A stretch of DNA of 33,083 bases from Chiloscyllium plagiosum (lineage: Eukaryota): the NCBI RefSeq assembly GCF_004010195.1, contig NW_025213447.1:1-33083 (forward strand), in the 5' to 3' direction. Under the pieces are notes generated by a model. The model saw nothing but the letters and a program-made list of their open reading frames with translations. It made no database searches and was not told the origin of the DNA. Each line of letters begins with the position of its first letter. Positions within the stretch are counted from its first letter, which is position 1. Shown here piece by piece: positions 6,505 through 33,083 of the stretch. A program made the translations under genes and the position numbers.

Positions 6505-6682
6505 CCAGAAGCCAGGGTGAGTTAAAGATGAACTGACACAGAAGGAGATATAAAGAAAGGGAAGAAAGAATTGATTTAAAAAGAGAGCTAACATTGTGAA
6601 TGGGTTTCAATTGTTCCATATCTGTGCTGGGAGGTTGACTAACATTGTGTTAATAACTATCCATCGTCCCAGAGGAGCAAGG

Positions 6683-6885: not shown

Positions 6886-7233
6886 NNNNNNNNNNNNNNN
6901 NNNNNNNNNNNNNNNNNNNNNNNNNNNNNNNNNNNNNNNNNNNNNNNNNNNNNNNNNNNNNNNNNNNNNNNNNNNNNNNNNNNNNNNNNNNNNNNNNNNN
7001 NNNNNNNNNNNNNNNNNNNNNNNNNNNNNNNNNNNNNNNNNNNNNNNNNNNNNNNNNNNNNNNNNNNNNNNNNNNNNNNNNNNNNNNNNNNNNNNNNNNN
7101 NNNNNNNNNNNNNNNNNNNNNNNNNNNNNNNNNNNNNNNNNNNNNNNNNNNNNNNNNNNNNNNNNNNNNNNNNNNNNNNNNNNNNNNNNNNNNNNNNNNN
7201 NNNNNNNNNNNNNNNNNNNNNNNNNNNNNNNNN

Positions 7234-7948: not shown

Positions 7949-8190
7949 CAGAGTGCCAGAGAAACAGAGTGCCCCAGAAACAAAGTGCCAGAGGAACAGA
8001 GTGCCTGAGAAACAGAGTGCCAGAGAAATAACGTGCCACACAAACAGACTACCAGAGAAACATCGTGCCCCAGAAACACAGTGCCCGAGAAACAGAATGC
8101 CAGCGGAACAAAGAGTCAGAAAAATACAGTCCCAGAGAAATAGAGTGTAAAAGAAACAGAGTGCTAGAGAAACAGAGCACCGAAGAAACA
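7949..8190. repeat. Diverged 16-bp tandem repeat (~15 copies)
   Basis: Unit approximately GAGTGCCAGAGAAACA. Confidence 0.85.
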
Positions 8191-8526
8191 ACTGTTTCCT
8201 CATTTCCCCTTCCCCCACCTCACCCTCGTTCTAAACTTCCAGCTCAGTACTGTCCCCATGACTTGTCCGGACTTGTCCTACCTGCCTATCTCCTTTTCCA
8301 CCTATCCACTCCACCCTCTCCTCCCTGACCTATCACCTTCATCCCCTCCCCCACTCACCCATTGTACTCTATGCTACTTTCTCCCCATCTCCACCCCCCT
8401 CCAGCTTATCTCTCCACGCTTCAGGCTCTCTGCCTTTATTCCTGATGAAGGGCTTTTGCCTGAAACGTCGATTTCAAAACTCCTCGGATGCTGCCTGAAC
8501 TGCTGTGCTCTTCCAGCACCACTGAT
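8191..8526 (+). mobile_element. PLE 3' region (right arm of composite 6683-8526)
   Basis: Begins with the PLE ORF end (FLISPSP), has a C/T-rich 3'UTR and hammerhead motif; followed by TSD CCAGAGGAGCAAGG. Confidence 0.8.
8442..8469 (+). ncRNA. Minimal hammerhead ribozyme motif
   Basis: CTGATGA-A-GGGC-TTTT-GCCT-GAAA-CG-TC. Confidence 0.6.
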
Positions 8527-8705
8527 CCAGAGGAGCAAGGGGCTGCTGTCTCACTAGAGAGAGAGAGAGAGAGAGAGTGAGAAAGAGAGAGAAAGAGAGA
8601 GGACTGGTGGTGGTTTTACCTGAGAGACAGCACACCTCAATTCAGGGAAGAGGTTGAGAAGGAGAGCTCTTCATGGTAACCTCAGTTGGTGTGGGATTTA
8701 AAACA
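8527..8705 (-). mobile_element. SINE-like element with internal (GA)n; its other end lies at ~6660-6682 (host of the PLE composite)
   Basis: (GA)n at 8557-8600; degenerate B box on the minus strand near 8690-8703; continuity across the TSD. Confidence 0.45.
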
Positions 8706-9225: not shown

Positions 9226-9696
9226 AGTAAAGGCAGGCCCATCCAGAGGCCCCCACTCCCTGTGAACAAAGGAAAGGAACTTGTGACAATTCACAACTGA
9301 TAAATGGTTTAGAAACAAAAAACAGAGCCCTGAAGTGGGAGATTCCTGAGTGATTTATATCACAGTAACAGCTTTGACAGTGTGGTGTGGTGTTTATTCT
9401 CATTCACAGGGGTTTTAATCGCCCCCACCACCCCCAACATTCAGGAATATTGTTCCTGGACAGAACACCTAGCTCTGTTACTCTCCAGTTTCTAGTTCAA
9501 GCTCCTGTCTTGACCAAACCTGACCTGGTGAGTTAACTTAAAAAGTTCTGAGAAATTAGAAACAGGTAGGAAGTGAAGATTTGAGCCAAGTAGAGGATTA
9601 AGGCGAGACTCTGGGAATCCAAGATGGTGGCGATCGAGAAAGAATCGCACAGCAAAGCTCTGCACCACAGTGCAAGCTGGACAAACTTTTAACCTG

Positions 9697-9823
9697 GTGA
9701 AGGACTTTTGCCCGAAACGTCAATTTTCCTGCTCCTCAGACGCTGCCTGACCTGCTGTGCTTTTCCAGCACAGCATTCTCGAGTCTGATCTCCAGTATCT
9801 GGAGTCCTCACTTTCACCTAGAT
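9697..9823 (+). mobile_element. Short PLE 3' end inserted in the L1 5'UTR, 11-bp TSD
   Basis: CTTTTAACCTG at 9686-9696 and 9824-9834; body matches 6385-6504. Confidence 0.8.
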
Positions 9824-9934
9824 CTTTTAACCTGCCCTACCCGGACCACCCTGATATCCTGGGGCTCTGGGAAAGTCATGGACTCCCAAGAAACAGTTTA
9901 AAAAAAAACTTACCTTGGTTCTCGCCATCCAGGG

Positions 9935-10730
9935 ATGCCCAAGAAGGGAGGAAGAGCGTCCAAGGCCTAGCCCATGGCACAGCCTGCAGCATCCTCAGAC
10001 TCGATTACCTACCAGGCCCCAGTAAAGGAGCTCGCAAAATCTCGGGAGATGCTGGGGAAGCCGATAGAGGAGAAGCTGGCCCCGATCTCTATCACGCTGC
10101 AGAGGCATGAACAGCAGCTGGGAGACCTGGAGGAAAGGCCGGATGAGGTAGAACACAGAGCCGCAGTGGTGGAAGCTGATACTGGTTCCTCCAAGGATAG
10201 GATCCAGGCCCTGCAGACTCAGGTCTGTAAGTTGCTTGACCAAGTTGACCTAGAGAACAGGGGCAAGAGAAGAAATATTCGGATCATCGGTCTGCTGGAG
10301 GGTAAGGAAGGTGAGCGGCCGGCAGAATTTATTGAGGCCCGGTTGCTGAAATTCCTTAACTTGGAGGCTGGCATGAGAGGGCTCACCGGGTCACGGTGCG
10401 GAGTCAGGGCTGGGTCAATGTCCTCGTCCTCTCTTGGTTCGGTTTCATCACTAAAGAGATAAGGAGAGAATCGTGGAAGCTGACAGAATCCAGGGGAAAG
10501 ATCTGAAGGCCTTAGTTTATGAGGGCTCGAAGATCATGTTCTTCCAGGAGTTCTCAGCGGCGATGATCAGGAAAAGAAAATCCTCTGACAGTGTCAAGAG
10601 AAGACTGAGGGAGCTCGGGATCCAGTACTCTCTGAGGTATCCAGTGGTCCTTTGGGTCACCTTAGATGGATCTGTATATCTCTTTGATGGAGAAGGCAAG
10701 AGACTTTGTGGACAAATTAACTTAATCTGA
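9935..10730 (+). pseudogene. L1 ORF1p remnant (coiled coil + RRM + CTD)
   Basis: MPKKGGR...; DLENRGKRRNIRIIGLLEGKEG is a typical L1 ORF1 motif; YEGSKIMFFQEFSAAMIRKRK and YSLRYP; stops and frameshifts. Confidence 0.85.
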
Positions 10731-10970
10731 ACAATGTAATATATATAAATATTCAGGTTGTTGGGATATGTCTCTACTTTTCTTTAAAAAGAAGAAGTCC
10801 AGTCAGGGCTTTGTTTTCCTATTTTTTATTGGGAATAATCTGGTCTAAACTATGCTCAGGGACGGCTGGGATGTTTACTTTCAATTTCTAAGTTATGTTA
10901 TACCAAATGATTGGTGGGGTATTTACCCTTTTTAGTCCAAAATTTCTTTCTGCACATTGTTATTCCATGG

Positions 10971-11293
10971 CCTAAAGAGAGAAAATGCTGGAAAATCTCA
11001 GCAGGTCTGGCAGCATCTGTAAGGAGGGAAAAGAGCTGACGTTTCGAGTCTAACTGACCCTTTGTCAAAGTTAAAAACAGGAGAGAAATAGGGAGGTAAT
11101 TATACTAATATTTTTTCCTCGTATAAATACCTCCCTATTTCTCCTTTTTTTTAGCTTTGACAAAGGGTCAGTTAGACTCAAAACGTCAGCTCTTTTCTCT
11201 CCTCACAGATGTTGCCAGACCTGCTGAGATTTTCCAGCATTTTCTCTCTTTTGTTTCAGATTCCAGTATCCGCAGTAATTTGCTTTTATCTAT
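10971..11293 (+). mobile_element. Fold-back PLE-type non-autonomous insertion, 14-bp TSD
   Basis: Arms ~10974-11105 and ~11121-11251 are reverse complements; TTGTTATTCCATGG at 10957-10970 and 11294-11307; degenerate hammerhead TTGACAA-AGGGTC-AGTTA-GACTC-(G/A)AAACGTC. Confidence 0.8.
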
Positions 11294-12022
11294 TTGTTAT
11301 TCCATGGTGTATTTTCTTTCTTTTCTGCTTGTGTTTGCGGTGCGGCTCGAGCTGGGAGGAGGGAAAATGGTTGGGGTGGCTAGATGCCTACTCTGGGCAG
11401 TTTATGCCCTGTTCAGATAGTTAAATACCGGGGCTGCAGTATTGGCAGCGGGATGGGGAGTTGGGTTTTGGGATGTGTAGATGCCCCCTTTGGGCAGGNN
11501 NNNNNNNNNNNNNNNNNNNNNNNNNNNNNNNNNNNNNNNNNNNNNNNNNNNNNNNNNNNNNNNNNNNNNNNNNNNNNNNNNNNNNNNNNNNNNNNNNNNN
11601 NNNNNNNNNNNNNNNNNNNNNNNNNNNNNNNNNNNNNNNNNNNNNNNNNNNNNNNNNNNNNNNNNNNNNNNNNNNNNNNNNNNNNNNNNNNNNNNNNNNN
11701 NNNNNNNNNNNNNNNNNNNNNNNNNNNNNNNNNNNNNNNNNNNNNNNNNNNNNNNNNNNNNNNNNNNNNNNNNNNNNNNNNNNNNNNNNNNNNNNNNNNN
11801 NNNNNNNNNNNNNNNNNNNNNNNNNNNNNNNNNNNNNNNNNNNNNNNNNNNNNNNNNNNNNNNNNNNNNNNNNNNNNNNNNNNNNNNNNNNNNNNNNNNN
11901 NNNNNNNNNNNNNNNNNNNNNNNNNNNNNNNNNNNNNNNNNNNNNNNNNNNNNNNNNNNNNNNNNNNNNNNNNNNNNNNNNNNNNNNNNNNNNNNNNNNN
12001 NNNNNNNNNNNNNNNNNNNNNN

Positions 12023-12367
12023 CTGTGTCCGTGTGCTTGTGAGAGTGTGTGTGTGTGTAGGAATATCTGTGTGTGTGTGTGTGTGTGTGTGTAGTGCAAT
12101 GGTGATCACCTGTAATGTGACATGGACCCCAGGTCCCGGTTGAGGCCCTCCCTATGGGTACCAAACTTAGCTATCAGCCTCTGCTCAGCCACTTTCCTCT
12201 GCTGCCTGTCCCGGTTTCCCCAATGTACTACCATGCCTCCGGGCATCCCTGCCTGCAACGTATAAGATAGACAACATTGGCTGAGTCACATGAGTACCTG
12301 CCATGTACAAGGTGGGAGGTGTCCCCACCTGTAATGGTGGTATCTATGTCCACAATCTGACACGTCT
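12023..12367 (-). pseudogene. Penelope-like GIY-YIG endonuclease remnant with (CA)n 3'UTR
   Basis: Manual translation: TCQIVDIDTTITGGDTSHLVHGRYSCDSANVVYLIRCRQGCPEAW*YIGET, then after a deletion RDRQQRKVAEQRLIAKFGTHREGLNRDLGSMSHYR* (VVY...YIG and GLN motifs). Confidence 0.8.
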
Positions 12368-12369
12368 GC

Positions 12370-12516
12370 ACTGCAACTGACAGGGTACCCTTCGTTGTTC
12401 AGTACTTCCCAGGGGCTGACAAACTACACCATGTTCTTTGTGACCTGCAACACATTATCAATGAGGATGAGCACCTCACCAAGACCTTCCCCACCTCCAC
12501 TACTCGCCTTTAAACA
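12370..12516 (+). pseudogene. Inverted upstream piece of the same PLE ORF (RT thumb/linker)
   Basis: TATDRVPFVVQYFPGADKLHHVLCDLQHIINEDEHLTKTFP resembles the PLE region preceding the Cys/GIY-YIG domain. Confidence 0.65.
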
Positions 12517-12615
12517 AACATATTAGTTTATGTAGTTTTTTTGTTCAATGGATCTTGTGACACTAAGGCTCGGCGATTTGTAATTCGAGTTCCTCCTCTC
12601 TAGAATCTAAATGTT

Positions 12616-12780
12616 ACATAGAACATAGAACAAAAACACAGAACAATACAGAACAATATGGCCCTTGATGTTGCACCGACCTGTAAACTAATTTAAGCTC
12701 GTCCCCCTACACTATCCCATCATCATCCATGTGCTTATCTAAGGATTGTTTAAATCTCCCTAACGTGGCTGAGTTAACTG
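12616..12780 (-). mobile_element. CR1 3' tail fragment just upstream of L1 ORF2
   Basis: Reverse complement of ~29693-29830 (TAGGGAGATTTAAACAATCCTTAGATAAGCACATGGATGATGATGGGATAGTGT); (CATAGAA)n tail. Confidence 0.8.
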
Positions 12781-12786
12781 CGGATT

Positions 12787-15700
12787 ATGGCTAATGACTT
12801 GATTAAATGGTGTACCTGGAAAATCAAGGGGAGTCACTCACCAATTCAGAGGAAGAAGGTACTTTTAAGTCTTAGAAAGGAGGAGATGAATATTGCTTTA
12901 TTACAGGAGACAATTTGGATGATGGGGAGTATTTGAAACTACAGCAGAATGGCTTTGATCGGGTTTACTTTTCATCTTTTAATACCAGAAGTAGGGGAGT
13001 GACTAAATTGGTTAGGAGGAATCTCTCATTTAAGTTAAAGACACACACGGGAGGTTTGTAATCCTCAAAGCCCTGATAAACGAGGACGAATATGGTGTTT
13101 TAAATGTTTACTGTCCTCCGGCCCATCCTCTCAAGTTTCTGGTAGATGCGTTCTCTAAATTGATCAGTCTCGAGTCTCGGCCTATCATTCTAGGGGCAGA
13201 TTTTAATTGCCTTATGGATCCCACAGTAGACAGGTTGCCCAAAGGCCCCCTGATACCCTCTGTCCAAACTAAACAATGAGTGGATCTGGGTGTGGCGTTA
13301 GGGTTAATGGACGTTTGGAGGAGTCGCCACCCTACAGGCAGGGATTTTACATTTTTTCCCAATCCACACAGATGTCCCACCAGGATTGAGTTTTTTCTGA
13401 CCCCCCCCTGTGGCAACCCTGGACTTGGTGGCATCTTGTACAATTGGTAATATTCCCATCTCCGATCACGCTCCAGTGTACCTGTTGGTTAAGATTAAGG
13501 ACACTATAGTGGGCCTGAGGCACAGCCGAATGGATCCCTTTATCCCTAAGGATAATACGTTTATGAAGTACTTCTCTAGGGAATTTATGGCGTTCCTAGA
13601 CATTAATTCAGGCTCAGTTAGTAGCCCGTCCGTCCTTTGGGAAACTACCATAGCCTATGCCAGGGGTTTAGTTATTTCCTACTCTGCCAGTAGGACGTGG
13701 CAGAAGGCCGAGCAGCAACATCTCCTCGAAGCACGGTTGAAGGCAGTTGAGATGGCTTACTCTGACAGGCCCTCATTGGCCAAGCTACAGAGGATTACGG
13801 CGCAGAGTCTGCATAGAATTCCGTGATCACACAGACAGCGAAGAAGGAGTTACTTTCACAAAACAAAGGTTGCGTGAGCATGGTGACAAACCGGGCAAGT
13901 ACCTCGCATATCTCACCAGGGAAAGGAGTGCCCCTCAAGCCATTACATCGATTAGGGAAGGTGCTGGGAAACTAAGATGTGATTCTAAAAAGATTAATGT
14001 GACATTTCAGAGATTTTACTCTGAATTATACCAATCTGAGGGTTGTGAGGAGGGGCGGGCCAACATGGAGTCCTTTTCCTAGGATCTGGAGCTCCCGGAC
14101 GTGACCCCTGAACAAGAGTCTTTTCTCAGTAGCCCCTTGTCAGAGCAAGAGCTGCAGGAGGCCGTGAGGCAACCTCAGAGTGGAAAGGCACCTGGTCCTG
14201 ATGAACTTCCCAGTGAATTCTATAAAGAATTTATAAGCAAAATATCAGGCCTGATGCTCAATATGTTCAATGACTCATACAGCCATGATCGTCTCCCGCC
14301 ATCTCAAAGAGAGGCCAATATTTCACTTATTCTTAAAAAAAGGGAAGCTCCTGGAGGACTGTGTTTCGTGCAGATCAATTTTACTCTTAAATGTTGACTT
14401 TAAAATCCTTTCTAAGACACTTGCACGAAGGCTGGAGACTTCATAAAGGGCCACAGATCCTCCAATAACGTTAGGAGGCTGCTTAATGTAATCCAAGCGT
14501 GTCATCACCAATCAATACAGGGATTGGTGATTTCTCTAGACGCAGAGAAGGCGTTTGACTGAGTTGAGTGGCCGTACCTTTTCTATACTCTGGAGCAGTT
14601 TGGTTTGGGTGAATCCTTTATATGATAGGTAAAGGTTCTCTCCAGTGGCCCTCTCGCTGCGGTCATCACCAATGGGGTACAGTCAAGCAATTTTAATATT
14701 TTTAGGGTCAGCCGGCAGGGCTGTCCCCTTTCACCATTGCTTTTTACGTTGGTGATTGAACCATTGGCGGAGGCCATTCGTAGGGATCCCAATATACTAG
14801 TTCCAGAAATGGGGTCACAATTACATAAGATTTCGTTGTACGCGGACGATGTCCTCATTTGTTTTGTCAAATCCAGCAGTTTTAGTGCCTCTCCTGATAC
14901 AGTACATCTGCACGTTTGGCAACTTTTCAGGGAACAAGATTAATTTTGCAAAGTTTGTGGGTGGCCTTACAAAGGGGCTAGGTCTTGAGGGCGAATCTCG
15001 GTTCCCGTTTAAGTGGTCACAGGGAGGTTTTGTGTATTTGAGAATATTCATCATTCCAGGTTCTTGATTGGTTGTTTAAAGTTAATTTTGTTCAATTATT
15101 TGACAAAATCAAACAAGACCTTCAAAGGTGGGAGGTGTTTCCGGTCTCATGGTTAGGTCGGATAGCGCTTATTAAGATGAATAGTCTCCCTGTTTGTTGT
15201 ACCCTATCTGGATGTTCCCCTCGGTCGTCAAGAAGTAAACATTCAGGAGACTGAACGGCTGGTTCAACTTTTTTATTTGGCATCATAAGTGGCCCTTTAC
15301 TAAATTAGTTAAACTGCAATTGCTTCACAGATTGGGGGGGAGTGGATCTCCCGGACATTAAAAACTATCAACTGAGCTCGCTTTTATCTTACGTGAGCGA
15401 TTGGGCTTGTGGGGAGCCTCTTTCAATACGGTTAGATATCAGAACCTCTCAGGCAAGGTACCCCCTTACTGACTTGCTGTTTTGGACAACATGAGGACAG
15501 TTAGGGACTATTACCACAACCCAATAGTTATCAATACTGTTAAAGCATGGAGAGCAATTCGGCAGAGGGAAGGCAATATTGGCAAAACATCTTCTCGTAC
15601 ACCTATAGTGGGTGTGCTGGGTTTTCAGCCTGGGATGATGGATTCAGGATTCAAACATCGGGCAGCTAGGGATGTGTCTTGCATGGGCGATTTATTTGAG

Positions 15701-16460
15701 GGAGACACAATGATGTCTTTTGATCAGTTAGTGCAGAAATACAAGCAATCTATGCTCCCTACAAATCTGACATCGGGATGAGGGTGCTCAGTGCTAAGAG
15801 TACATTTTCTGCCAGCACTCTATATCATCAACCGTGGGGGCAGCCCCTCAGATGAGTTTGATCGACCCTGCAGGGTGTGGGAGAGACAGCCAGGCATTGA
15901 GGTCTCCTCAGAGGCATGGGAAGATGTTTGGGAAAACGCAAGAAAGGTATCAACTTGCAACAGGGCCCATGCTTTACAGTTGAAGGTTCTCCACAGGGTC
16001 CACTTGGCTTTGGATTGTTTGTCAAGATTTAATCCCGGAGTATCTTCGACATGTCCCACATGCAAGGTCTGTACGGGCACTCCTACCCATTTTCTCTGGT
16101 CCTGTGGTAAGCCTCAAACGCACTGGAGCGCTGTGGCGGGTGCAATGGAGGGGATTTGGGGTGGAAGGGTGGGGAAGAACCCGATCTCTCTTCTTCTTGG
16201 CCTGACCAACGTTTCCCGAAGGATGTGCATAAGAAAAAAACTTTTCAACATCCTCACTTTCTGCACAAGAAAAAACATCTTGTTCGGTTGGGTATCTAAA
16301 AAAAACCCTGGGCCTGTCGGGTTGGTGGAAGATTGTTATGGAGCATATTCCCCTTGGATTTTCTCACAAATATGGTACACCACAAAACTGAGAATTTCTA
16401 CCAGACATGGCAGCCCTTTCTGGAATACCTGGACACAGATTTGTCTGCCACACCAGTAAG
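12787..16460 (+). pseudogene. L1 ORF2p remnant: APE endonuclease, reverse transcriptase, CCHC zinc knuckle
   Basis: MANDLIKWCTWKIKG...ALLQET; GADFN; ISDHAPV; GKAPGPD; SLDAEKAFD; RQGCPLSPLLF; YADD at 14839-14850; CPTC-x8-H-x4-C (CPTCKVCTGTPTHFLWSC); many frameshifts and stops. Confidence 0.9.
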
Positions 16461-16616
16461 GGCTTTTATATAGCCACATCGATTGTGCTTTATGAGTCCA
16501 ATATCCAGAGAGAGGCCACTGCAAACATATGAATATGTGAAAACTACTGCTCTCGATATTCAAGAGTGAGTGTTTTGTTTGGCTGGGCTGTGTTATTATT
16601 TATTTAGTTCTGTGGT

Positions 16617-16928
16617 TAGATTAGATTACTTACAGTGTGGAAACAGGCCCTTCGGCCCAACAAGTCCACACTGACCCTGCGAAGAGCATCCCACCCAGAC
16701 CCATTCCCCTACATTTACCCCCTTCACCTAACACTACAGGCAATTTAGCATGGCTAATTCACCTGACCTGCACATCTCTGGACTGTGGGAGGAAACCGGA
16801 GCACCCGGAGGAAACCCACGCAGACACGGGGTGATTGTGCAACCTCCAGACGGTCAGTCGCCTGAGGCGGGAATTGAACCCGGGTCTCTGGTGCTGTGAG
16901 GTAGCAGTGCTAACCACCATGCCACCCA
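16617..16928 (-). mobile_element. HE1/V-SINE-like SINE in the L1 3'UTR
   Basis: Reverse complement of 1308-1622, with a (TAATC)n tail. Confidence 0.9.
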
Positions 16929-17458
16929 GGGTTGGAGGTTTTTTTATGTATATTTTTCTATACATATTTATATAGTTGTACGTGAGGGCGGTTTGGATTT
17001 TTAACATTTTTTTGGTGTTCTTTCTTTGTATTGCTTTGAATTGTATTGTTTTGTATTTGTTGTAATTTTAAAAATTCTATTTTTCAATAAAAGTATATCT
17101 TTCAAACAAGAGGAGCCTCCTCTCTAAGAATCGCTGACTGTATGTCCCTTCTCTCCCTCTCCTTCCATACCATACATCCCTCTGCTGTTTCACAGCTCTT
17201 CTGTGGTCATGATGCAATGTTTAAGGCTGTGAGCAAACTCTTTCCTGCGTTCTTGTTTCTCTTCCACATTTCTAATGTTGGCGCAGTCACGTCAACAGAA
17301 CCCTCTTGTGAATCACACCTCGTTACAGGATGTGTTACTCTCCATTGAAATGGTTTTCCTGATTGCTCCACCTCTGAGTTTCTGAAATCTCTCTTCTGAA
17401 TCTCTGGCTACATCGAGGTACAGAGGAGAGACAGTCAAACCAATGTGGTCTGGTATTT

Positions 17459-19004: not shown

Positions 19005-19189
19005 TAGCTGGAAGTTTAGAACTAGTGTGAGGTGGGGGAAGGGGAAATGAGGGAACTGTTGAAGTCCACATTGATGCCCTGGGGTTGAAGTGTTCCGGGG
19101 TGGAAGATGAGGCATTCTTCCTCCAGGCGTCTGGTGGTGAGGGAGCGGCGGTGAAGGAGGCCCAGGACCTCCATGTCCTCGGCAGAGTG
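19005..19189 (-). pseudogene. PLE GIY-YIG C-terminal fragment
   Basis: HSAEDMEVLGLLHRRSLTTRRLEEECLIFHPGTLQPQGINVDFNSSLISPSP; the end matches 8191-8245. Confidence 0.75.
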
Positions 19190-19710
19190 TCCAACCCGTC
19201 CATGCCGACCAAATATCCTGACCTAATCTAGTCCCATTTGCCAGCACCTGGCCCATATCCCTTTGAGCCCTTCCTATTCATATACCCAACCAGATGCCTT
19301 TTAAATAATTCAATTGTACCAGCCTCCACCACTTCCTTTGGCAGCTCATTCCATATTCATACCACCCTCTGCATGAAAAAGTTACCCATTAGGTCCCTTT
19401 TATATCTTTCCCCTCTCACCTTAAACCTATGCCCTCTAGTTCTGGCCTCTCCCAACCCCAGGGAAAATTCTTTGTCTATTTATCCCATCGATGCACCTCA
19501 CGATTTTATAAACCTCTATAAGGTCACCCCTCACCCTCCGACGCTCCAGGGAAAACAGCCCCAGTCACTTCAGCCTGGCCCTATAGCTCATACCCTCCAA
19601 CCCTGGCAACATCCTTGTAAATCTTTTCTGAAGCCTTTCAAGTTACACAACATCCTTCCAACAGGAAGGAGACCAGAATTGCACACAATATTCCAAAAGT
19701 GGACAAACCA
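19190..19710 (-). mobile_element. CR1 LINE 3' fragment
   Basis: Reverse-complement homology to 28300-28815 (LEYCVQFWSP ... FFMQRVV). Confidence 0.88.
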
Positions 19711-19848
19711 ATTTTTGTTTTTAGTGGGAGATGTACAAAATGATTTTGTCTGATTGCCAAAAGTGGAATCAGTGAGGAATTTACATCATCTGTTTCTCTA
19801 AACTGAGTGGTTCAACTTTATAAATAAGGGCTGCATCTGGGACACATG

Positions 19849-20139
19849 ATTTGGAGATGCTGGTGTTGGACTGGGGTGTACAAAGTTCAAAAATCATACA
19901 ACACCAGGTTACAGTCCAACAGGTTTAATTGGAAGCACACTAGCTTTCGGAGCGACGCTCCTTCATCAGGTGATTGTGGAGGGCTCGATCGTAACACAGA
20001 ATTTATAGCAAAAATTTACAGTGTGACGTAACTGAAATTATACATTGGAAAATATCTTGATTGTCTGTTGAGTCTTTCATCTGTTCGAATACCATGATAG
20101 TTTCACTTCTTTCATGTGTAAATCACAAAACCTTTTTTT
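19849..20139 (-). mobile_element. PLE-type 3' end, second family (left arm of composite 19849-24622), runs into gap
   Basis: 19885-19985 is the reverse complement of 24536-24621 apart from a ~15-bp indel; intact hammerhead motif. Confidence 0.75.
19941..19969 (-). ncRNA. Minimal hammerhead ribozyme motif
   Basis: CAC-CTGATGA-A-GGAGC-GTC-GCTCC-GAAA-GC-TA-GTG: perfect 5-bp stem II, palindromic AGCT helix III, CAC/GTG stem I. Confidence 0.65.
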
Positions 20140-20602
20140 NNNNNNNNNNNNNNNNNNNNNNNNNNNNNNNNNNNNNNNNNNNNNNNNNNNNNNNNNNNNN
20201 NNNNNNNNNNNNNNNNNNNNNNNNNNNNNNNNNNNNNNNNNNNNNNNNNNNNNNNNNNNNNNNNNNNNNNNNNNNNNNNNNNNNNNNNNNNNNNNNNNNN
20301 NNNNNNNNNNNNNNNNNNNNNNNNNNNNNNNNNNNNNNNNNNNNNNNNNNNNNNNNNNNNNNNNNNNNNNNNNNNNNNNNNNNNNNNNNNNNNNNNNNNN
20401 NNNNNNNNNNNNNNNNNNNNNNNNNNNNNNNNNNNNNNNNNNNNNNNNNNNNNNNNNNNNNNNNNNNNNNNNNNNNNNNNNNNNNNNNNNNNNNNNNNNN
20501 NNNNNNNNNNNNNNNNNNNNNNNNNNNNNNNNNNNNNNNNNNNNNNNNNNNNNNNNNNNNNNNNNNNNNNNNNNNNNNNNNNNNNNNNNNNNNNNNNNNN
20601 NN

Positions 20603-22705
20603 TCATATAACATTACACACCTCCGTCATATAATGTTACACACCTCCATCATATAACATCACAAACCACCATCATATACCATTACACACCTCTGTCATAT
20701 AACATGACACACCTCTGTCATATAACGTTACGGACCTCCATCATATAACAGTACACACCACCGTCATATAGCATTACACACCTCCGCTATATAACGTTAC
20801 ACACCTCTGTCATATAACGTTATACACCTCCATCATATAACGTTACACACCTCCGTCATATAACGCTACACACCTCCGACATATAACATTACACACCTCA
20901 GTCATGTAAATAAAGGTCAATTGGTGCTGGGATGCCAGTTTCTGAAGAGCTATTTCAGTGCACACCTCCTTCATATAACATTACACACCTCCGTTATATA
21001 ACGTTACACACCTCCGTCATATAACGTTACACACCTCCGTCATATAACGTTATATACCCCATCATATAACATTACACACCTCCGTTATATAACGTTACAC
21101 ACCTCCGTCATATAACGTTATATACCCCATCATATAACGTTACACACCTCCGTCATATAACGTTATATACCCCATCATATAACGTTACACACCTCCGTCA
21201 TATAACGCTACACACCTCCGTCATATAACGTTACACACCTCCGTTATATAACGTTATATACCCCATCATATAACGTTACACACCTCCGTTATATAACGTT
21301 ACACACCTCCGTCAAATAACGTTACACACCTCCGTTATATAACGTTACATACCCCGTCATATAACGTTACACACCGCCGTTATATAACGTTACACACCTC
21401 CGTCATATAACGTTACACACCTTCGTCATATAACATTACACACCTCCATCATATAACATTACACACCTCCGTCATATAACGTTACACACCTCCAACATAT
21501 AACATTACACACCTCCGTCATATTACGTTACACACCTCCGTTATATAACGTTACACACCTCCGTCACATAACGTTACATACCCCGTCATATAACGTTACA
21601 CACCTCCGTCATATAACGTTACACACCTTCGTCATATAACGTTACACACCTCCGTCATATAACATTACGCACCTCCAACATATAACATTTCACTCCTCCA
21701 TCATATAACATTACACACCTCCGTCATATAACATTACACACCTCCAACATATAACATTACACACCTCCGTCATATAACGTTACACACCTCCGTTACATAA
21801 CATTACACACCTCCAACATATAACATTACACACCTCCAGCATATAACATTACACACCTCCATCATATAACATTACACACCTCCAATATATAACATTACAC
21901 ACCTCCGTCATATAACGTTGCACACCTTCGTCATATAACATTACACACCACCATCATATAACATTACACACCACACCTTCGTCATATAACGTTACACACC
22001 TCCGTCATGTACCATTACACACCCCCGTCATATAACGTTACACATCTCCGTCATATAACATTACACACCTCCGTCATATAACGTTACACACCTTCGTCAT
22101 ATAACATTACACACCACCATCATATAACATTACACACCACACCTTCGTCATATAACGTTACACACCTCCGTCATGTACCATTACACATCTCCGTCATATA
22201 CCATTACAAACCACCGTCATATAGCATTACACACCTCCGTCATATAAAGTTACACACCTCCGTCATATAACATTACACACCTCCGTCATATAACGTTACA
22301 CACCTCCGTTATATAACGTTACATACCCCGTCATATAACGTTACACATCTCCGTCATATAACATTACACACCTCCGTCATATAACATTACACACCACCAT
22401 CATATAACATTACACACCTCCATCATAAAACGTTACACACCTCCATCATATAACGTTACACACCCCCGTCATATAACATCACACACCTTAGTCATATAAC
22501 ATCACACACCTCCATCATATAACATTACACACCTCCATCATATAACATCACACACCTTAGTCATATAACATCACACACCTCCATCATATAACATTACACA
22601 CCTCCGTCATATAATATAATATACCTCCATTATATAACATAGTCCACCTCCATTATATAATATAATACACCTCCTTATATAACATTACACAGCTTCATTA
22701 TATTA
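20603..22705 (+). repeat. 23-bp minisatellite array (~90 copies), interrupted at 20905-20962
   Basis: Unit CATATAAC(G/A)TTACACACCTCCGT. Confidence 0.97.
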
Positions 22706-23400
22706 CCTCTCAATCTTTGCTGTGAGGAGAATAATCTTCAGTTCCTCCAATTGATCCATGTAACTAACCTCCCTAACCCACTGCCCTAAACCCCGTTCCA
22801 TTCCTGCAAGCCTTCTGGTAAATCTCTGCACTGAAATAGCTCTTCAGAGGCTGGCATCCCATCACCAATTGCCCTTTATTTACAAATGCATGGCTTGTGA
22901 CAATGGTACGGGCTGTCACTGAGTCAGACATTCAGGGGACCCGATATCCCCGACATTCATCCTGTTATGTCAGCAAGGGCTCCCTGATTGGACCAGATTG
23001 ACAGCCCCAATCTGGGAACACATTCCCTATGACATCCAGCCTGGCTGACCTCGTTACCATGACTACCCTCCCCAGGTCCCTCAGGTCTTCTCTAAACTGT
23101 ACTGGATACAACACTCTAATTGTGTCCGAAGCAGGGTTCTATTTTGGACCTGCCCCTCCCGTGTTGTATAAACCTATTGATCTGTGCTTTGAATTTTTCA
23201 GTCTGAGAAAGGTAAAGGTGAGGATTCCAGATTTCCAAAGTCCTTTGTTTGAAGCAATGATTAATGACATCACCTTGAATATAGTCATCGAGGTCAACAG
23301 CATGGAAACTGGCCCTTCGGCCCAACCTGCCTGTGGCTGCCCAGTTTTCACAATTTAGACTAATCCCATTTGGTTGCACTTGACCCATAACCCTCCATAA
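22706..23400 (-). mobile_element. Decayed CR1 fragments hosting the solo LTR
   Basis: ...GTAAATCTCTGCAC | CCTCCCCAGG... rejoins across the LTR into a typical CR1 antisense sequence; a separate CR1 3' tail lies at ~23290-23400. Confidence 0.5.
22832..23067 (-). mobile_element. Probable Gypsy-type solo LTR
   Basis: Minus strand: GTAGTC... start, CCAATCAG box, TGTAAATAAAG poly(A) signal, ...CTATTTCA end; ~235 bp interrupting a CR1 remnant; no clear TSD. Confidence 0.55.
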
Positions 23401-24032
23401 CTCTAGCTCAATAATTGAGGTTTACTTCCTTTAATCATTTTGACACAGCGATTAGATTAAACTCGAGGTTCTGTGGATTTAGGAGAATATTAAACCTGAT
23501 GAATGTAACCTTCACTCACAGGAAAGAGTTTCCCTTCTTCAGTACTGGTTAACATTTCCAATATCTCCCGAGCTCCCAAGGCCAGCAGATCTGCTCCAGG
23601 TTATCACCCATCCCCTCCCTAGAGTGGAGAATTCATGAAGATCAATTCTTCACTAACAATTCAGACTGAGCTCACAAACGAGAGCGAGCCTGGGGGCTGT
23701 GATCCCATCAGGCAGTGCAGCAGGCTCCAGGAGGCAAATGCTGACCCCCATCCTAGTCTCAAGTCTGATGTTCACTTTAGGAAACCCACTATCAATAGGA
23801 AAGCTGCGATAATCAAACAGGCCGTTAACAGCAAGGTCTGCAGCACAGACGGCCTTCCCAGACAGGCTACACTTTCCTGACATCGAGACTCCATGCAGAC
23901 AGACCATATTTACAAGGAATAGACAAAACCCGAGAGAGGGGGAGAAGATGGGAGGGAAGCAGAGGAGATGGAGGTGAAGAGAAAGAAGGGGAGGTGGGTA
24001 AAGCAGAGGAAGACAGGGAAGGAAATCACCGT

Positions 24033-24341
24033 GGTCAGCACGGTGGCACAGTGGTTAGCACTGCCGCCTCACAGCACCAGAGACCTGGGTTCAATTCCTG
24101 CTTCAGGCGACTGACTGTGCGGAGTTTGCACATTCTCCCCATGTCTGCGTGGGTTTCCTCCGGGTGCTCCGGTTTCCTCCCACAGTCAGGTCAGGTCAGG
24201 TGAATTGGCCGTGCTAAATTGCCTCTAGTGTTTGGTGAAGGGGTAAACGTAGGGGAATGGGTCTGGGTGGGTTGCGTTTCGGCGGGTCGGTGTGGAGTTG
24301 TTGGGCCAAAGGGCCTGTTTCTACACTGTAATGTAATCTAA
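24033..24341 (+). mobile_element. HE1/V-SINE-like SINE
   Basis: Same A/B boxes, core and TAATCTAA tail as 1308-1622. Confidence 0.9.
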
Positions 24342-24535
24342 TTGAGGTTACGAAGGAGAGAGAGGGCAAGGATGAGTGAGAGACAAGGACAGAGAGGGAA
24401 TGTAAGGTGCATTCTGAAGGCATACGAGATGAAGAAGCTGAAGCCTAAGGACGATGACAAATTTGAGGACTGAAGACAATGAGCATCAAGAGTAAAGAAT
24501 CATGTGCTCGTGGGAAGAGTGAACAGAGAAAGTTT

Positions 24536-24622
24536 AGCCCTCCACTATCACCTGATGAAGGAGCGTCGCTCCGAAAGCTAGTGTGCTTCCAATTAAACCT
24601 GGTGTTGTGTGATTTTTAACTA
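24536..24622 (+). mobile_element. Short PLE-type arm (right arm of composite 19849-24622)
   Basis: Inverted copy of 19885-19985; followed by TGGGACACATG, which also precedes the left arm. Confidence 0.75.
24552..24580 (+). ncRNA. Minimal hammerhead ribozyme motif
   Basis: CTGATGAAGGAGCGTCGCTCCGAAAGCTA, identical to the minus-strand motif at 19941-19969. Confidence 0.65.
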
Positions 24623-25009
24623 TGGGACACATGCTCAGCTAATTTAAAATGAAGAAAAGTTTTGCTTGAATTCTTTACAAACAACAGACTTGTAAGCACG
24701 TGGAAATAATGTGATAATTAAGGTGTTGGGGACGGTTAAAGGAGACAACAGGCTTGATATAGAGAAACACTTTCTTCCGATGGTCAAGACCAGAATACAG
24801 GGGGCAAACTTAAAGATGAGAGTGAGGTTATTTGGGGATGAAGATCAGGAATGGAATCTTCTTTCAAAGACAAATGAAAATCTGCATGTCACCCACAGGA
24901 AGCTGCTGAAATTTCAAACCTGAGGTTTGATTCATTTGATGGAAGGTGGAAAGTACCTGAAAAGTGTAATCCAATTCTTCACGAAGATGAGCCTGAGTTG
25001 TTCCTCTGT

Positions 25010-25990
25010 ACAGTCAGAGAGGCATACAGCATGGAAACACACCCTTCAGCCCCACTCGTCCATGCTGAGCAGGTTTCCTAAACTGAACTGGTCCCTCCAA
25101 ACCCTTCCTATTCATATACCCATCCAGATGCCTTTTAAATGTTGCAATTGTACCAGCCTCCAGCACTTCCTGTGGCAGCTCATTCCATACCCATACCACC
25201 CTCTGCGTGAAAAGGTTACTCCTTAGGCCCCTTTAAATCTTTCCCCTTTCACCCTAAACCCATGCCCTCTAGTTCTGGACTCCCCCACCCACCCCCCACT
25301 CTGGATAATAGTCCTTGGCTATCCTATCCATGCCCCTCATGATTTTATAAACCTCACAGATATTGGTCATCCCTCAGCCTCTGACACTCCAGGAAATACG
25401 TTCCAGCCTATTCAATGTCTCCTCATATCACAAACACTACAGTCTCGGTAACATCCTTGCAAATCCTTGTTTCACCCATTCCATTTTAATAACATCGTTC
25501 CTACAGCAGGGTGACCAGAAATGTACATAGAACTCCAAATACAGCTTTAAATAACAACTCCTGTACTCAATGATGTGACCGACGAGGGCAAGTGTACTGA
25601 ACACCCTCTTCGCCACCCTGTCTACCTGTGACACCACTTTCAAGAAAGTATGTATCTAGGTGTCTTTGTTCATCAACACTCCCAGGGCCCTCTTATTAAC
25701 GGTGCAAGTCCTGCCCTGGTTTGTCTTACCAAAATGCAGCATCTTGCGTTTATCTGAATTAAACTCCATCTACCATTTCTCCGCCCACTGATCCCACGGT
25801 ACTCTGAGATAATCTTCTTTGCTGTCCACTATACCACTTTACCTCCTGGATTCACATCCAAATCAGTTATGTAAATAAGCAAAAGCAGTGGACCTAGCAC
25901 CGATCCTTCTGGCACACCGCTGGTCACAGGCCTGCAGTCTGAAAAACAATCCTCCACCCACCGCCCTCTATCTCCTACCGTCAAGCCAAT
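25010..25990 (-). mobile_element. Decayed 5'-truncated CR1 LINE
   Basis: Minus strand: [56 protein letters not shown], then the 3'UTR. Confidence 0.88.
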
Positions 25991-26097
25991 TGGCTAGCTG
26001 ATTTTCTGTTTTCATTTCAGATCTCCAGCGTCCGCAGCGCTGCTCCTATAGATAGATATGAGGAATAAAAGGACAACTAGAGTAGGAATAGAGCCAG

Positions 26098-26306
26098 GAG
26101 AAAGTGAGGTCTGCAGATGCTGGAGATCAGAGCTGAAAATGTGTTGCCGAGAAAGCGCACCAGGTCAGGCAGCATCCAAGGAGCAGGAGAATCGACGTTT
26201 CGGGCATGAGCCTTTCCTGAAGAAGGGCTCATGCCCGAAACATCAATTCTCCTGCTCCTTGGATGCTGCCTGACCTGCTGCGCTTTTCCAGCAACACATT
26301 TTCAGC
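26098..26306. mobile_element. Palindromic PLE fold-back insertion, 15-bp TSD
   Basis: TAGGAATAGAGCCAG at 26083-26097 and 26307-26321; arms ~26130-26215 and ~26222-26307 are inverted; CTGAAGA-A-GGGC-TCAT-GCCC-GAAA at 26217-26240. Confidence 0.85.
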
Positions 26307-26675
26307 TAGGAATAGAGCCAGTCAAAGACAGAAATGAGAAGTTGTGTGAGGACCCTGTGGAGATCGGAGAAGTGCTAAACAAATATTTCTCATCAGTTTT
26401 CACTCAGGGAAAGGAGAGTATTGTGGAGGAGAAGAGTGAGATACAAGATATTTGACTAGAAAGGATTGAGGTTAGTAAGGAGGAGGTGTTATCAAGACAA
26501 GTCCCCTGGGCCAAATGGGATTTATCCGAGGATTCTCTGGGAAGCTAGGGAGAAGGTGTTGGAACCTTTGGCTTTGATCTTTGAGTCGTCATTGTCTACA
26601 GGTTTAGTACCAGAGGACTGCAAATGTTGTGCCCTTGTTCAAGAAGGGCAGTAGAGCTGACCCAGGTAATTATGA

Positions 26676-27135: not shown

Positions 27136-28858
27136 ATGGGGGAGATACTAAATGAGTATTTTGCATCAGCATTTACTGTGGAAAAGCATATGGAAGAAAC
27201 AGACTGTAGGGAAATAAATGGTGACATCTTGCAAAATGTCCAGATTACAGAAGAGGAAGTGCAGGAAGTCTTGAAAAGGTTAAAGGTGGATAAACCCCCA
27301 GGACCTGATCAGGTGTACCTGAGAACTCTGCGGGAAGCTAGAGAAGTGATTGCTGGGCCTCTTGCTGAGATATTTGTATCATCGATAGTCACAGGCGAGG
27401 TGCCGGAAGACAGGAGGTTGGCAAACGTGATGCCAATCTTTAAGAAGTGTGGTAAGGACAAGCCTGGGAACTATAGACCAGTCAGCCTGACCTCGGTGGT
27501 GGGCAAGTTGTTGGAGGGAATCCTGAGGGACAGGATGTACATGTATTTGGAAAGGCCAGGACTGATTCGGGAACGTCAGCATGGCTTTGTGCGTGGGACA
27601 TCATGTCTCATAAACTTGATTGAGTTTTTTGAAGAAGTAACAAAGAGGATTGATGAGGAAAGAGTAGTAGATGAGATCTATATGGACTTCAGTAAGGCTT
27701 TCGACAAGGTTCCCCATGGGAGACTGATTAGCAGGGTTAGATATCATGGAATACAGGGAGAACTAGCCATTTGGATACAGAACTGGCTCAAAGGTAGAAG
27801 ACAGAGGGTGGTGGTGGAGGGTTGTTTTTCAGACTGGAGGCCTGTGATCAGTGGAGTGCCACAAGGATCAGTGCTGGGTCCTCTACTTTTTATCATTTAC
27901 ATAAATGATGCGAGTATATGAGGAACAGTTAGTAAGTTTGCAGATAATACTAAAAATTGGAGGTGTAGTGGACAGTGAAGAGGGTTACTTCAGATTACAA
28001 CAGGATCTGGACCAGATGGGCCAATGGGCTGAGAGGTGGCAGATGGAGGTTAAATCAGATAAATGCGAGGTGCTGCATTTTGGGAAAGCAAATCTTAGCA
28101 GGACTTATACACTTAATGGTAAGGTCCTAGGGAGTGTTGCTGAATAGAGACTTTTGAGTGCAGGTTCATAGCTCCTTGAAAGTGGAGTCGCAGGTAGATA
28201 GGATAGTGAAGAAGGCGTTTGGTATGCTTTCCTTTATTGGTCGGTGTATTGAGAACAGGAGGTGGGAGGTCATGTTGCAGCTGTACAGGACATTGGTTAG
28301 GCCACAGTTGGAATACTGCGTGCAATTCTGGTCTCCTTCCTAACGGAAAGATGTTGTGAAACTTGAAAGGGTTCAGAAAAGATTTACAAGCATGTTGCCA
28401 GGGTTGGAGGATTTGAGCTACAGGGAGAGGCTGAACAGGCTTGGGCTGTTTTCCCTGGAGCGTTAGAGGCTGGGAGGTGACCTTATAGAGGTTTACAAAA
28501 TTATGAGGGACATGGATAGGGTAAATAGACAAAGTCTTTTCCCTGGGGTCGGGGAGTCCAGAACTAGAGGGCGTAGGTTTAGGGTGAGAGGGGAAAGATA
28601 TAAAATAGACCTAAGAGGCAACTTTTTCACGCAGAGCACGGTACGTGTATGGAATGAGCTGCCAGAGGATGTGGTGGAGGCTGGTACAATTGCAACATTT
28701 AAGAGGCATTTGGATGTGTATATGAATAGGAAGGGTTTGGAGGGATATGGGCCGGGTACTGGCAGGTGGGACTAGATTGGGTTGGGATATCTGGTCGGCT
28801 GGACGGGTTTGACCGAAGGGTTTGTTTCTGTGTTGTACGTCTCTACAACTCTATGACT
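27136..28858 (+). mobile_element. Younger 5'-truncated CR1 LINE (RT domain + 3'UTR) nested in the host CR1
   Basis: ORF 27091-27921: [50 protein letters not shown] (FADD mutated); tail CTCTACAACTCTATGACT. Confidence 0.92.
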
Positions 28859-30846: not shown

Positions 30847-31102
30847 TTACACACCTCCATCATATACCATTACACACCTCCGTCATATAGCATGACACAC
30901 CTCCGTCATATAACGATACACACCTCCGTCATATAACATTACACACCTACATCATATAACATTACACACCTCCGTCATATAATGTTACACACCTCCGTCA
31001 TATAACGTTACACACGTCCATCATATAAAGTTACACACCTCCATCATATAAGGTTACACACGTCCATCATATAAAGTTACACACCTCCGTCATATAACAT
31101 CA
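30847..31102 (+). repeat. 23-bp minisatellite, same family and orientation as 20603-22705 (~11 copies)
   Basis: CATATAAC(G/A)TTACACACCTCCGT units. Confidence 0.95.
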
Positions 31103-31104
31103 TG

Positions 31105-33083
31105 TGATGTTATATGACGGAGGTGTGTAACGTTATATTACGGAGGTGTGTAATGTTATATGACGGAGGTGTGTAACGTTATATGACGGAGGTGTGTAAT
31201 GTTATATTACGGAGGTGTGTAATGTTATATGACGGAGGTGTGTAATGTTATATTACGGAGGTGTGTAACGTTATATTACGGAGGTGTGTAACGTTATATT
31301 ACGGAGGTGTGTAATGTTATATTACAGAGGTGTGTAATGTTATATGACAGAGGTGTGTAATGTTATATGACAGAGGTGTGTAATGTTATATGACGGAGGT
31401 GTGTAACGTTATATTACGGAGGTGTGTAACGTTATATTACGGAGGTGTGTAATGTTATATTACGGAGGTGTGTAATGTTATATGACGGGGGGGTGTAATG
31501 TTATATGATGGAGGTGTGTAATGTTATATGACGGAGGTGTGTAACGTTATATGACGGAGGTGTGTAACGTTATTTGACGGAGGTGTGTAAGGTTATATTA
31601 CGGAAGTGTGTAATGTTATATGACGGAGGTGTGTAATGTTATATGACGGAGGTGTGTAACGCTATTTGACGGAGGTGTGTAATGTTATATGATGGAGGTG
31701 TGTAACGTTATTTGACGAAGGTGTGTAACGTTATATGACGGAGGTGTGTAATGTTATATGACGGAGACGTGTAATGTTATATGACGGAGGTGTGTAACGT
31801 TATTTGACGGAGGTGTGTAACGGTATATTACGGAGGTGTGTAATGTTATATGACGGAGGTGTGTAACGTTATATGATGGAGGCGTGTAACGTTATTTGAC
31901 GGAGGTGTGTAACGTTATTTGACGGAGGTGTGTACCGTTATTTGACAGAGGTGTGTAATGTTATATGATGGAGGTGTGTAACGTTATTTGACGGAGGTGT
32001 GTAATGTTATATGACGGAGGTGTGTTATGTTATACGACGGAGGTGTGTAACGTTGTATGATGGAGGTGTGTAACGTTATTTGATGGAGGTGTGTTATGTT
32101 ATATGACGGAGGTGTGTAACGTTATTTGACGGAGGTGTGTAACGTTATATGACGGAGGTGTGTAATGTTATATGATGGAGGTGTGTAACGTTATATGACG
32201 GAGGTGTGTAATGTTATATGACGGAGGTGTGTAATGTTATATGACGGTGGTGTGTAACGTTATATTACGCAGGTGTGTAATGTTATATGACGGAGGTGTG
32301 TAATGTTATATGACGGTGGTGTGTAATGTTATATGACGGAGGTGTGTAATGTTATTTGACGGAGGCGTGTAATGGTATATGTCGGAGGTGTGTAACGTTA
32401 TATGATGGAGGTGTGTAACGTTATTTGACGGAGGTGTGTAACGTTATTTGACGGAGATATGTAATGTTATATGACGGAGGTGTGTAATGTTATATGATGG
32501 AGGTGTGTAATGTTATATGACGGAGGTATGTAATGTTATATGACGGTGGTGTGTAACGTTATATGACGGAGGTGTGTAACGTTTTTTGACGGAGGTGTGT
32601 AATGGTATATGACGGAGGTGTGTAATGTTATATGATGGAGGTGTGTAACGTTATGTGACGGAGGTGTGTAATGTTATATGACGGAGGTGTGTAACTTTAC
32701 ATGACGGAGGTGTGTAATGTTATATGATGGAGGTGTGTAATGTTGTATGACGGAGGTGTGTAACATTGTATGATGGAGGTGTGTAATGTTATATGACGGT
32801 GGTGTGTAATGTTATATGACAGAGGTGTGTAATGGTATATGACGGAGGTGTGTAATGTTATATGATGGAGGTGTGTAACGTTATGTGACGGAGGTGTGTA
32901 ATGTTATATGACGGAGGTGTGTAACTTTACATGTCGGAGGTGTGTAATGTTATATGATGGAGGTGTGTAATGTTGTATGACGGAGGTGTGTAACATTGTA
33001 TGATGGAGGTGTGTAATGTTATATGACGGAGGTGTGTAATGTTATATGACGGAGGTGTGTAACGCTATATGATGGAGGTGTGT
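31105..33083 (-). repeat. 23-bp minisatellite in inverted orientation (>85 copies, runs off the window)
   Basis: ACGGAGGTGTGTAA(C/T)GTTATATG units. Confidence 0.97.

What the first reader, a model, noticed from the sequence alone, without database searches (positions are those of the whole stretch)
19838..24633. ~4.8-kb composite: inverted hammerhead-bearing PLE ends plus an 11-bp TSD bracket unrelated genomic cargo
Seen: TGGGACACATG sits immediately outside both a minus-strand PLE-type end (19838-19848) and its inverted partner (24623-24633). Both arms carry the identical motif CTGATGAAGGAGCGTCGCTCCGAAAGCTA. Between them lie a gap, a 2.1-kb satellite, CR1 debris, a solo LTR, unique DNA and a SINE. 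Established: PLE insertions often have an inverted 5' segment and carry minimal hammerheads. Inference: the whole unit occupies one target site. Either a PLE mobilised or captured kilobases of host DNA (template switch or transduction), or the hairpin centre of a small fold-back later acquired a large insertion. This would be a cargo-carrying, composite-transposon-like PLE structure. Caveat: an N gap (20140-20602) lies inside.
Basis: partly seen in the sequence, partly recalled or inferred. Interest (0 to 1): 0.7.

Follow-up and report, generated by a model that had tools for sequence, protein, structure and literature searches.

The report
Penelope insertion enclosing 4-kb host DNA
A jumping gene of the Penelope type seems to have landed once in this shark-like genome and sealed about four thousand bases of ordinary host DNA between its two mirror-image ends, a kind of capture already described in a rotifer.

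Summary
An exact 11-mer flanks two outward-facing, hammerhead-bearing arms (86/89 identical), and only the left arm has a 35-nt tail. This is the published anatomy of one Penelope-like (PLE) insertion. Four other PLE-end units in the window show the same rule (11-15-bp duplications; 33-42-nt one-sided tails in the three two-armed ones), while mismatched flank pairs never exceed 8 bp. So the 4.8 kb very probably fills one target site. The interior (3.9 kb visible) is an old block of host DNA that joins the short arm 16 nt before its hammerhead. Best reading (0.6): the host DNA was taken in while the two newly made arms were joined. Rivals: later capture at the hairpin centre (0.2) and assembly error (0.13). 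No reads, empty allele or donor copy were seen, and the left cargo junction is in a gap. Precedent exists: a 4-kb gene framed by Penelope repeats with an 8-bp duplication in a rotifer. Nothing shows that the unit moves as a composite transposon. New member of a known kind; interest 0.38.

The parts
19838..19848 (+). Target-site duplication, left copy (11 bp)
19849..20139 (-). Left PLE arm, 3' end facing outward; 291 nt visible, runs into the gap
19849..19883 (-). 35-nt tail, present on this arm only
19941..19969 (-). Minimal type-I hammerhead motif (core, bulged A, 5-bp helix II, empty palindromic helix III, 3-bp helix I)
20140..20602 (.). Assembly gap (463 N); hides the left arm's inner end and the left cargo junction
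20603..22706 (+). Cargo: 23-bp satellite, about 91 copies, degenerate right edge
20905..20962 (+). 58-nt inverted copy (54/58) of 22827-22884 inside the satellite; includes 5 nt beyond the end of the LTR-like insert
   Evidence: (I7)
22707..23150 (-). Cargo: decayed CR1 reverse-transcriptase piece, split by the insert below
   Evidence: weak matches, E 0.006 and 0.37
22832..23067 (-). Cargo: LTR-like insert, 236 nt (label recalled; no clean TSD)
   Evidence: sequence
23279..23404 (-). Cargo: short CR1 3' tail
   Evidence: 64% to 28732-28854
23405..24037 (.). Cargo: DNA with no second copy in the window
24038..24342 (+). Cargo: SINE, 79-90% to three other copies in the window
24343..24535 (.). 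Cargo: GA-rich DNA, joined without a gap to the right arm
24536..24622 (+). Right PLE arm, 87 nt, tail-less, starts 16 nt before the hammerhead core, 15-nt deletion between two 6-nt direct repeats
24552..24580 (+). Minimal hammerhead motif, identical to the left one
24623..24633 (+). Target-site duplication, right copy (11 bp)

Best explanation
One insertion of an endonuclease-bearing Penelope-like element, with host DNA taken in as it landed. Steps: (1) the element's protein cut both strands 11 nt apart (inferred from the TSD; cutting and extending both strands is shown in vitro for a lizard PLE). (2) Each cut end primed reverse transcription on PLE RNA, one at the tailed start site and one at the tail-less site, giving two arms whose 3' ends face outward (anatomy shown; mechanism inferred). 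(3) Instead of the two inner ends being joined directly, as in the window's empty fold-backs, about 4 kb of old genomic sequence was copied in between: either the short arm's growing end jumped to a host template (nascent RNA or DNA, possibly nearby), or the template was a read-through transcript from a donor locus in which this DNA already sat upstream of a PLE stub (inferred; the two routes cannot be told apart here). (4) Repair sealed the unit. It is now a dead fossil with no coding capacity.
For: Exact 11-mer at both outer ends against controls: 42 of 42 mismatched flank pairs give 8 nt or less and 9 of 19,856 random pairs give 11 or more. 5 of 7 candidate PLE-end units picked by eye in the window have 11-15-bp duplications, and 4 of 4 two-armed ones among them have a one-sided overhang of 32-42 nt. 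The right arm has no TSD of its own (best 5 nt), whereas a solo arm at 9686-9834 has 11 nt. The cargo joins the right arm 16 nt before the hammerhead core; three other short arms in the window also begin at or shortly before the core. The first bases of the TSD resemble the element bases that the tail-less arm lacks (6 of 8 here; 5 nt exact in the 6669-8540 unit), as priming by annealing would leave. The interior is a nested, decayed block (CR1 split by an insert; 58-nt inverted copy within the satellite), so it came as one piece. A second unit of the same build with a different arm sequence lies at 6669-8540. Published precedent: PMC3846280; two-strand extension and two start sites: PMC11167929. 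Eight runs from six samples of the same organism hold 0.64-0.91 of the words of 22720-25030, more than the 0.45 of its length that is flank, arm, SINE and LTR-like DNA, so the low-copy cargo is real DNA of the species.
Against: The left cargo junction is in the gap, so a TSD of a later insertion cannot be excluded. Both cargo-bearing units have an N gap just inside the left arm, which is what a systematic assembly error would also give. The arms differ by 3 substitutions and 2 indels. No microhomology is visible at the cargo/arm junction. The 7 control units were chosen by eye and 2 gave no TSD. The lizard PLE study reports priming without homology to the cut DNA, so the annealing argument is not general. 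AATAAA/ATTAAA hexamers lie on both strands of the cargo, which weakens the read-through route.
Confidence: 0.6

Rival explanations
1. A small PLE fold-back inserted first. Later its hairpin centre broke and repair patched in about 4 kb of genomic DNA, copied or excised from elsewhere, possibly from the satellite locus 6 kb downstream.
For: Empty fold-backs with the same TSD and tail rule are in the window (10957-11307, 26083-26321). The downstream satellite has its own fold-back centre at about 31100, a sign of breaks and repair nearby. The left junction is unseen.
Against: Needs two events, twice in 33 kb. The visible junction is at the short arm's usual start. The two empty fold-backs show that hairpins persist uncut. 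The inner array is not a recent copy of the outer ones: its 69-nt tiles match their own array better in 55 of 89 cases against 17, and no exact 60-mer is shared.
Confidence: 0.2
2. Assembly artefact: a simple fold-back locus was fused with another locus through the repeated arm, or the contigs on the two sides of the gap do not belong together.
For: 463-N gap inside the unit, and the second unit has one in the same position. PLE tandem/inverted structures are known to trouble short-read assemblies (PMC8557442). No junction was checked against reads.
Against: The TSD ties the left and right flanks together independently of the scaffolder. Cargo, right arm and right flank are in one ungapped stretch, and the arm is only 87 nt with a private 15-nt deletion. 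A fused simple fold-back would be expected to give a negative, not a 463-base, gap estimate (inference; assembler unknown).
Confidence: 0.13
3. The interior is in its ancestral place; two separate PLE insertions landed in opposite orientation, and the 11-mer match is chance or partly element sequence.
For: The start of the right 11-mer resembles the element's own continuation in 6 of 8 bases. No third copy of this family was obtained to fix its consensus end. The satellite also occurs nearby.
Against: The 11-mer is direct while the arms are inverted and it is not a palindrome, so it cannot be the element end on both sides. Chance about 5e-4. The right arm has no TSD of its own, and no inverted TSD abuts its inner end, as an inversion between two copies would leave. 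The tailed/tail-less pairing matches single insertions.
Confidence: 0.04

Closest known systems
Host DNA mobilised between Penelope pLTRs in the rotifer Adineta vaga (Arkhipova, Yushenova, Rodriguez 2013, PMC3846280; main text read, parts 1-4 of 5, supplements not read; size of 4 kb from passages of PMC6431247)
   Same: Non-PLE genomic DNA of about 4 kb inside PLE terminal repeats that include an inverted copy, bounded by a short TSD (8 bp there, 11 here); unspliced. The paper also mentions a few non-coding captures between solo pLTRs with TSDs.
   Different: There the gene lies between two direct pLTRs plus one inverted, and the empty allele was found. Here only two inverted arms are visible (a direct one could hide in the gap), the short arm is an 87-nt stub, the cargo is satellite and repeat debris, the host is a shark-like vertebrate, and no empty allele was seen.
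Canonical EN+ PLE insertion with inverted 5'-truncated copy and one-sided 30-40-bp tail (Craig et al. 2021, PMC8557442, passages; Frangieh et al. 2024, PMC11167929, main text)
   Same: Outward-facing arms, 35-nt tail on one side, hammerhead in the terminal repeat; end of the tailed arm 121 nt from the start of the hammerhead core, close to the 111-118 nt from the start codon reported for the lizard element.
   Different: In the canonical form the inverted copy directly abuts element sequence; here 3.9-4.4 kb of host DNA intervenes and no ORF is visible.
Minimal hammerheads of metazoan PLEs (Cervera and de la Pena 2014, PMC4209133, passages)
   Same: Type-I core, extra nucleotide before helix II, palindromic empty helix III.
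   Different: Helix II (5 bp) and helix I (3 bp) are shorter than the 7-8 and 4-5 bp described for schistosome motifs; cleavage not tested.
L1 5' inversion by twin priming, 5'/3' transduction and templated insertions (recalled; search listing only)
   Same: Both target ends prime synthesis; host DNA can ride along.
   Different: No poly(A) tail; both arms copy the same end of the element; different enzyme class.

Membership tests
EN+ Penelope-like element insertion | RT plus GIY-YIG endonuclease ORF belonging to this family | tested here: inconclusive
   No ORF in the visible arms. Two marine metagenome contigs carry the same hammerhead (27 of 29 nt) next to an RT piece (Pfam RVT_1, E 1.5e-5, 25.3 bits, under the 29.6 cut-off) and an ORF that looks GIY-YIG-like by eye but had no Pfam hit; they are another family.
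EN+ Penelope-like element insertion | Minimal hammerhead motif in the terminal repeat | tested here: met
   Motif and helices present in both arms. Minimum-energy folds do not single out the hammerhead fold (z -1.19 and -0.35); activity untested.
EN+ Penelope-like element insertion | Inverted, 5'-truncated copy with 3' ends facing outward | tested here: met
EN+ Penelope-like element insertion | 30-40-nt tail on one end only | tested here: met
   35 nt on the left arm
EN+ Penelope-like element insertion | Short target-site duplication around the whole unit | tested here: met
   11 bp exact; controls
pLTR-framed host-DNA mobilisation (A. vaga type) | Non-element DNA inside the terminal repeats and TSD | tested here: met
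   3,933 visible bases without PLE arm sequence, subject to the gap
pLTR-framed host-DNA mobilisation (A. vaga type) | Cargo between two direct pLTRs | tested here: inconclusive
   Only one direct arm is visible; the other position is in the 463-N gap
pLTR-framed host-DNA mobilisation (A. vaga type) | Empty allele with a single copy of the TSD | not tested
pLTR-framed host-DNA mobilisation (A. vaga type) | Donor or sister copy of the cargo elsewhere | not testable with these tools
   None in the window; no look-alike among earlier notes; the rest of the genome is not available
Composite (cut-and-paste) transposon | Two intact elements or symmetric terminal inverted repeats recognised by a transposase | tested here: not met
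   Arms are unequal non-coding stubs, one tailed and one not
Composite (cut-and-paste) transposon | Same unit at more than one site with different TSDs | not testable with these tools
   One copy in the window; no genome

The most novel reading that the evidence does not exclude
In this shark lineage, two-ended PLE insertion routinely takes in kilobases of host DNA at the point where the arms meet (2 of the 4 two-armed, TSD-bounded units in this window, in two different PLE families). With thousands of such insertions, this would be a major, unrecognised vertebrate route of DNA duplication and shuffling. Because both arms face outward, a transcript from either strand would end in a sense PLE end, so such units could be copied again with their cargo.
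Probability: 0.3. Interest if true: 0.68.

Novelty: new member of a known kind. Interest (0 to 1): 0.38.

Why it matters
How the two inverted halves of a PLE insertion are joined is an open step of the PLE cycle (PMC8557442 calls the features of the cycle undefined; PMC11167929 leaves the later steps unvalidated). TSD-bounded units with foreign DNA at the joint are fossils of that step. If the cargo's donor and both junctions are found, they tell whether the bridge was copied from RNA or DNA, and from near or far. A 4-kb case in a vertebrate would match the largest case I found in print. This copy holds no gene that I could detect and has no evident function.

Tried and rejected
Own-genome search: no genome held. 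Runs of two other organisms hold 0.15-0.26 of the words: this fits about 4-6% divergence over the whole stretch or repeats alone, so it is not used as evidence. Rfam: 12 matches at E<=1, all under their gathering scores, none a hammerhead and none on the arms. Looking for more copies of this PLE family: 0 in viral contigs; 2 contigs of another family in metagenomes; 1 bacterial hit to a 19-mer, with about 4 expected by chance, rejected. Folding energy does not support or refute the hammerhead. Satellite comparison: the inner array is not a recent duplicate of the outer arrays; the short outer array is slightly closer to its neighbour than to the inner one (5 of 9 tiles against 0), so my idea that the cargo was cut out of the downstream fold-back got no support. 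Inversion between two PLE copies: no inverted TSD abuts the inner end. Host exon in the cargo: 28 stop-to-stop frames of 35 aa or more at 22700-24020 were read by eye and showed only CR1 debris; they were not scanned against a family library. Earlier notes: no look-alike for the arm, satellite or cargo. Seven literature searches listed no report of PLE-framed host DNA in a shark or other vertebrate; the library lacks most subscription papers and I read listings only for most hits.
Full report
Observation. The 11-mer TGGGACACATG is present exactly twice, at 19838-19848 and 24623-24633, in the same orientation. The 29-nt motif is at 19941-19969 on the minus strand and 24552-24580 on the plus strand. 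The arms align over 89 bases with 3 mismatches, a 15-nt deletion between two short direct repeats and a 1-nt gap in the right arm. The left arm shows 291 nt before the 463-N gap; the right arm is 87 nt (24536-24622). Between the TSDs lie 4,774 bases, of which 3,933 are visible cargo. The host is a shark-like animal by my recall of its repeat families and by earlier notes on this genome; no call names it.

Is the 11-mer a TSD? The window gives its own controls. I picked 7 candidate PLE-end units by eye from the self-comparison. Five have exact flanking duplications of 14, 11, 14, 11 and 15 bp (6669/8527, 9686/9824, 10957/11294, 19838/24623, 26083/26307); two gave only 5-7 nt. All 42 mismatched left/right pairs give 8 nt or less, and 9 of 19,856 random window pairs give 11 or more. 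In the 4 two-armed units one arm overhangs the other by 34, 42, 32 and 33 nt at the alignment end; counted from the last shared base the focal tail is 35 nt. This matches the '30- to 40-bp tail, often at one end only' of PLE insertions (PMC8557442, passages), which a lizard PLE makes by starting reverse transcription at two sites while cutting and extending both target strands (PMC11167929, main text). The right arm has no duplication of its own (5 nt), unlike the solo arm at 9686-9834. The 11-mer cannot be the element's end on both sides, because it is direct and not palindromic while the arms are inverted. Its first 8 bases do resemble the element's continuation at the tail-less end; I read this as the priming site. 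I could not get a third copy of this family, so overlap of a few TSD bases with the family consensus is untested.

Are the arms PLE ends? They carry the minimal hammerhead described for metazoan PLEs (PMC4209133, passages): core, one extra A, 5-bp helix II, empty palindromic helix III, 3-bp helix I. Rfam does not score it and folding energy is uninformative. Two marine metagenome contigs have the same motif at 27 of 29 bases beside an RT piece (Pfam RVT_1, E 1.5e-5, under the curated cut-off) and an ORF that looks like a GIY-YIG domain by eye but had no Pfam hit. They are a different family, so this support is indirect.

The cargo. From left to right: a 23-bp satellite, a decayed CR1 piece split by a 236-nt LTR-like insert, a CR1 tail, low-copy DNA, a SINE and GA-rich DNA that runs without a gap into the right arm, 16 nt before the hammerhead core. 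Three other short arms in the window begin at or shortly before the core. Inside the satellite is an inverted 58-nt copy (54/58) of the insert's end plus 5 flanking bases, so satellite and insert have long been neighbours. The interior is therefore a pre-existing block, not a pile of later insertions. Eight runs from six samples of the same organism hold 0.64-0.91 of the sampled words of 22720-25030 (one sample may be the source of the assembly); flank, arm, SINE and LTR-like DNA make up 0.45 of that stretch, so the low-copy part exists in the species. This says nothing about adjacency. The same satellite lies outside the unit at 30847-33083, with a fold-back centre near 31100, but the inner array is not a recent copy of it.

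A second case. At 6669-8540 a 14-bp duplication brackets two inverted arms of another PLE family (153/169 identical, 34-nt tail on the left). Inside are a 348-N gap, a CR1 ORF1 piece (Pfam GDSL lipase, E 2.1e-7, just under the cut-off) and a 16-bp satellite, about 950 visible bases. The CR1 piece lacks room for its 3' end, so it is not a normal later CR1 insertion (inference). Two of four two-armed units thus carry cargo. Both have a gap just inside the left arm, which fits either hard-to-assemble DNA or a systematic error.

Mechanism. Shown: single-site anatomy, asymmetry of the arms, a block of host DNA between them. Inferred: staggered cut, priming from both ends, and bridging by a host template during the join (0.6), by a jump of the short arm's end or by a read-through transcript from a donor with a PLE stub. 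Rivals: later capture at the hairpin centre (0.2), assembly error (0.13), interior in place (0.04).

Comparison and novelty. Arkhipova et al. [quoted passage not shown] This unit works like that case. It differs in host, in its non-coding cargo and in showing only two inverted arms. Seven searches listed no vertebrate report, within a partial library. Earlier AI notes on this genome report 143-236-nt captures at the arm junction from about 1 kb away, and a multi-copy PLE-spread host segment; I did not test them and use them as leads only. Verdict: real, most likely one PLE insertion with about 4 kb of host cargo; new member of a known kind; not shown to be a mobile composite. Interest 0.38.

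Noticed in passing
window 6669-8540: Second cargo-bearing PLE unit, another family: 14-bp TSD, inverted arms, 34-nt one-sided tail, about 950 visible bases of CR1 ORF1 piece and 16-bp satellite, gap inside.
   Followed up: partly
window 10957-11307 and 26083-26321: Empty PLE fold-backs with 14- and 15-bp TSDs and one-sided tails; 9686-9834 is a solo arm with an 11-bp TSD.
   Followed up: yes
window 30847-33083: Same 23-bp satellite as in the cargo, switching strand at a near-perfect fold-back centre at about 31100.
   Followed up: partly
window 20905-20962: Inverted 58-nt copy of 22827-22884 patched into the satellite, 1.9 kb from its source; looks like a locally templated repair patch.
   Followed up: partly
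window 24498-24506: A 9-mer 30 nt inside the cargo's right end is the exact inverted copy of the left TSD/arm junction (19843-19851); 104 of 25,813 windows (0.4%) hold such a match, but it was found after the fact. Unexplained.
   Followed up: partly
window about 9900-17110: Long decayed LINE-1-like element on the plus strand with ORF1- and ORF2-like stretches and an A-rich end (read by eye; label recalled).
   Followed up: no
window 4552-5349: 49-bp tandem array, 16 copies, 91% matches.
   Followed up: no
L001 99-449 and 970-999; L002 48-581 and 1334-1363: A PLE-like element in marine metagenome contigs with the same hammerhead core (27 of 29 nt) as the window's arms but different flanks; in L001 an RT piece is inverted against the rest.
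   Followed up: partly
window 19006-19190: PLE-internal fragment (93% to 8189-8244) cut off by a CR1 piece at 19189-19712, just upstream of the left TSD.
   Followed up: no
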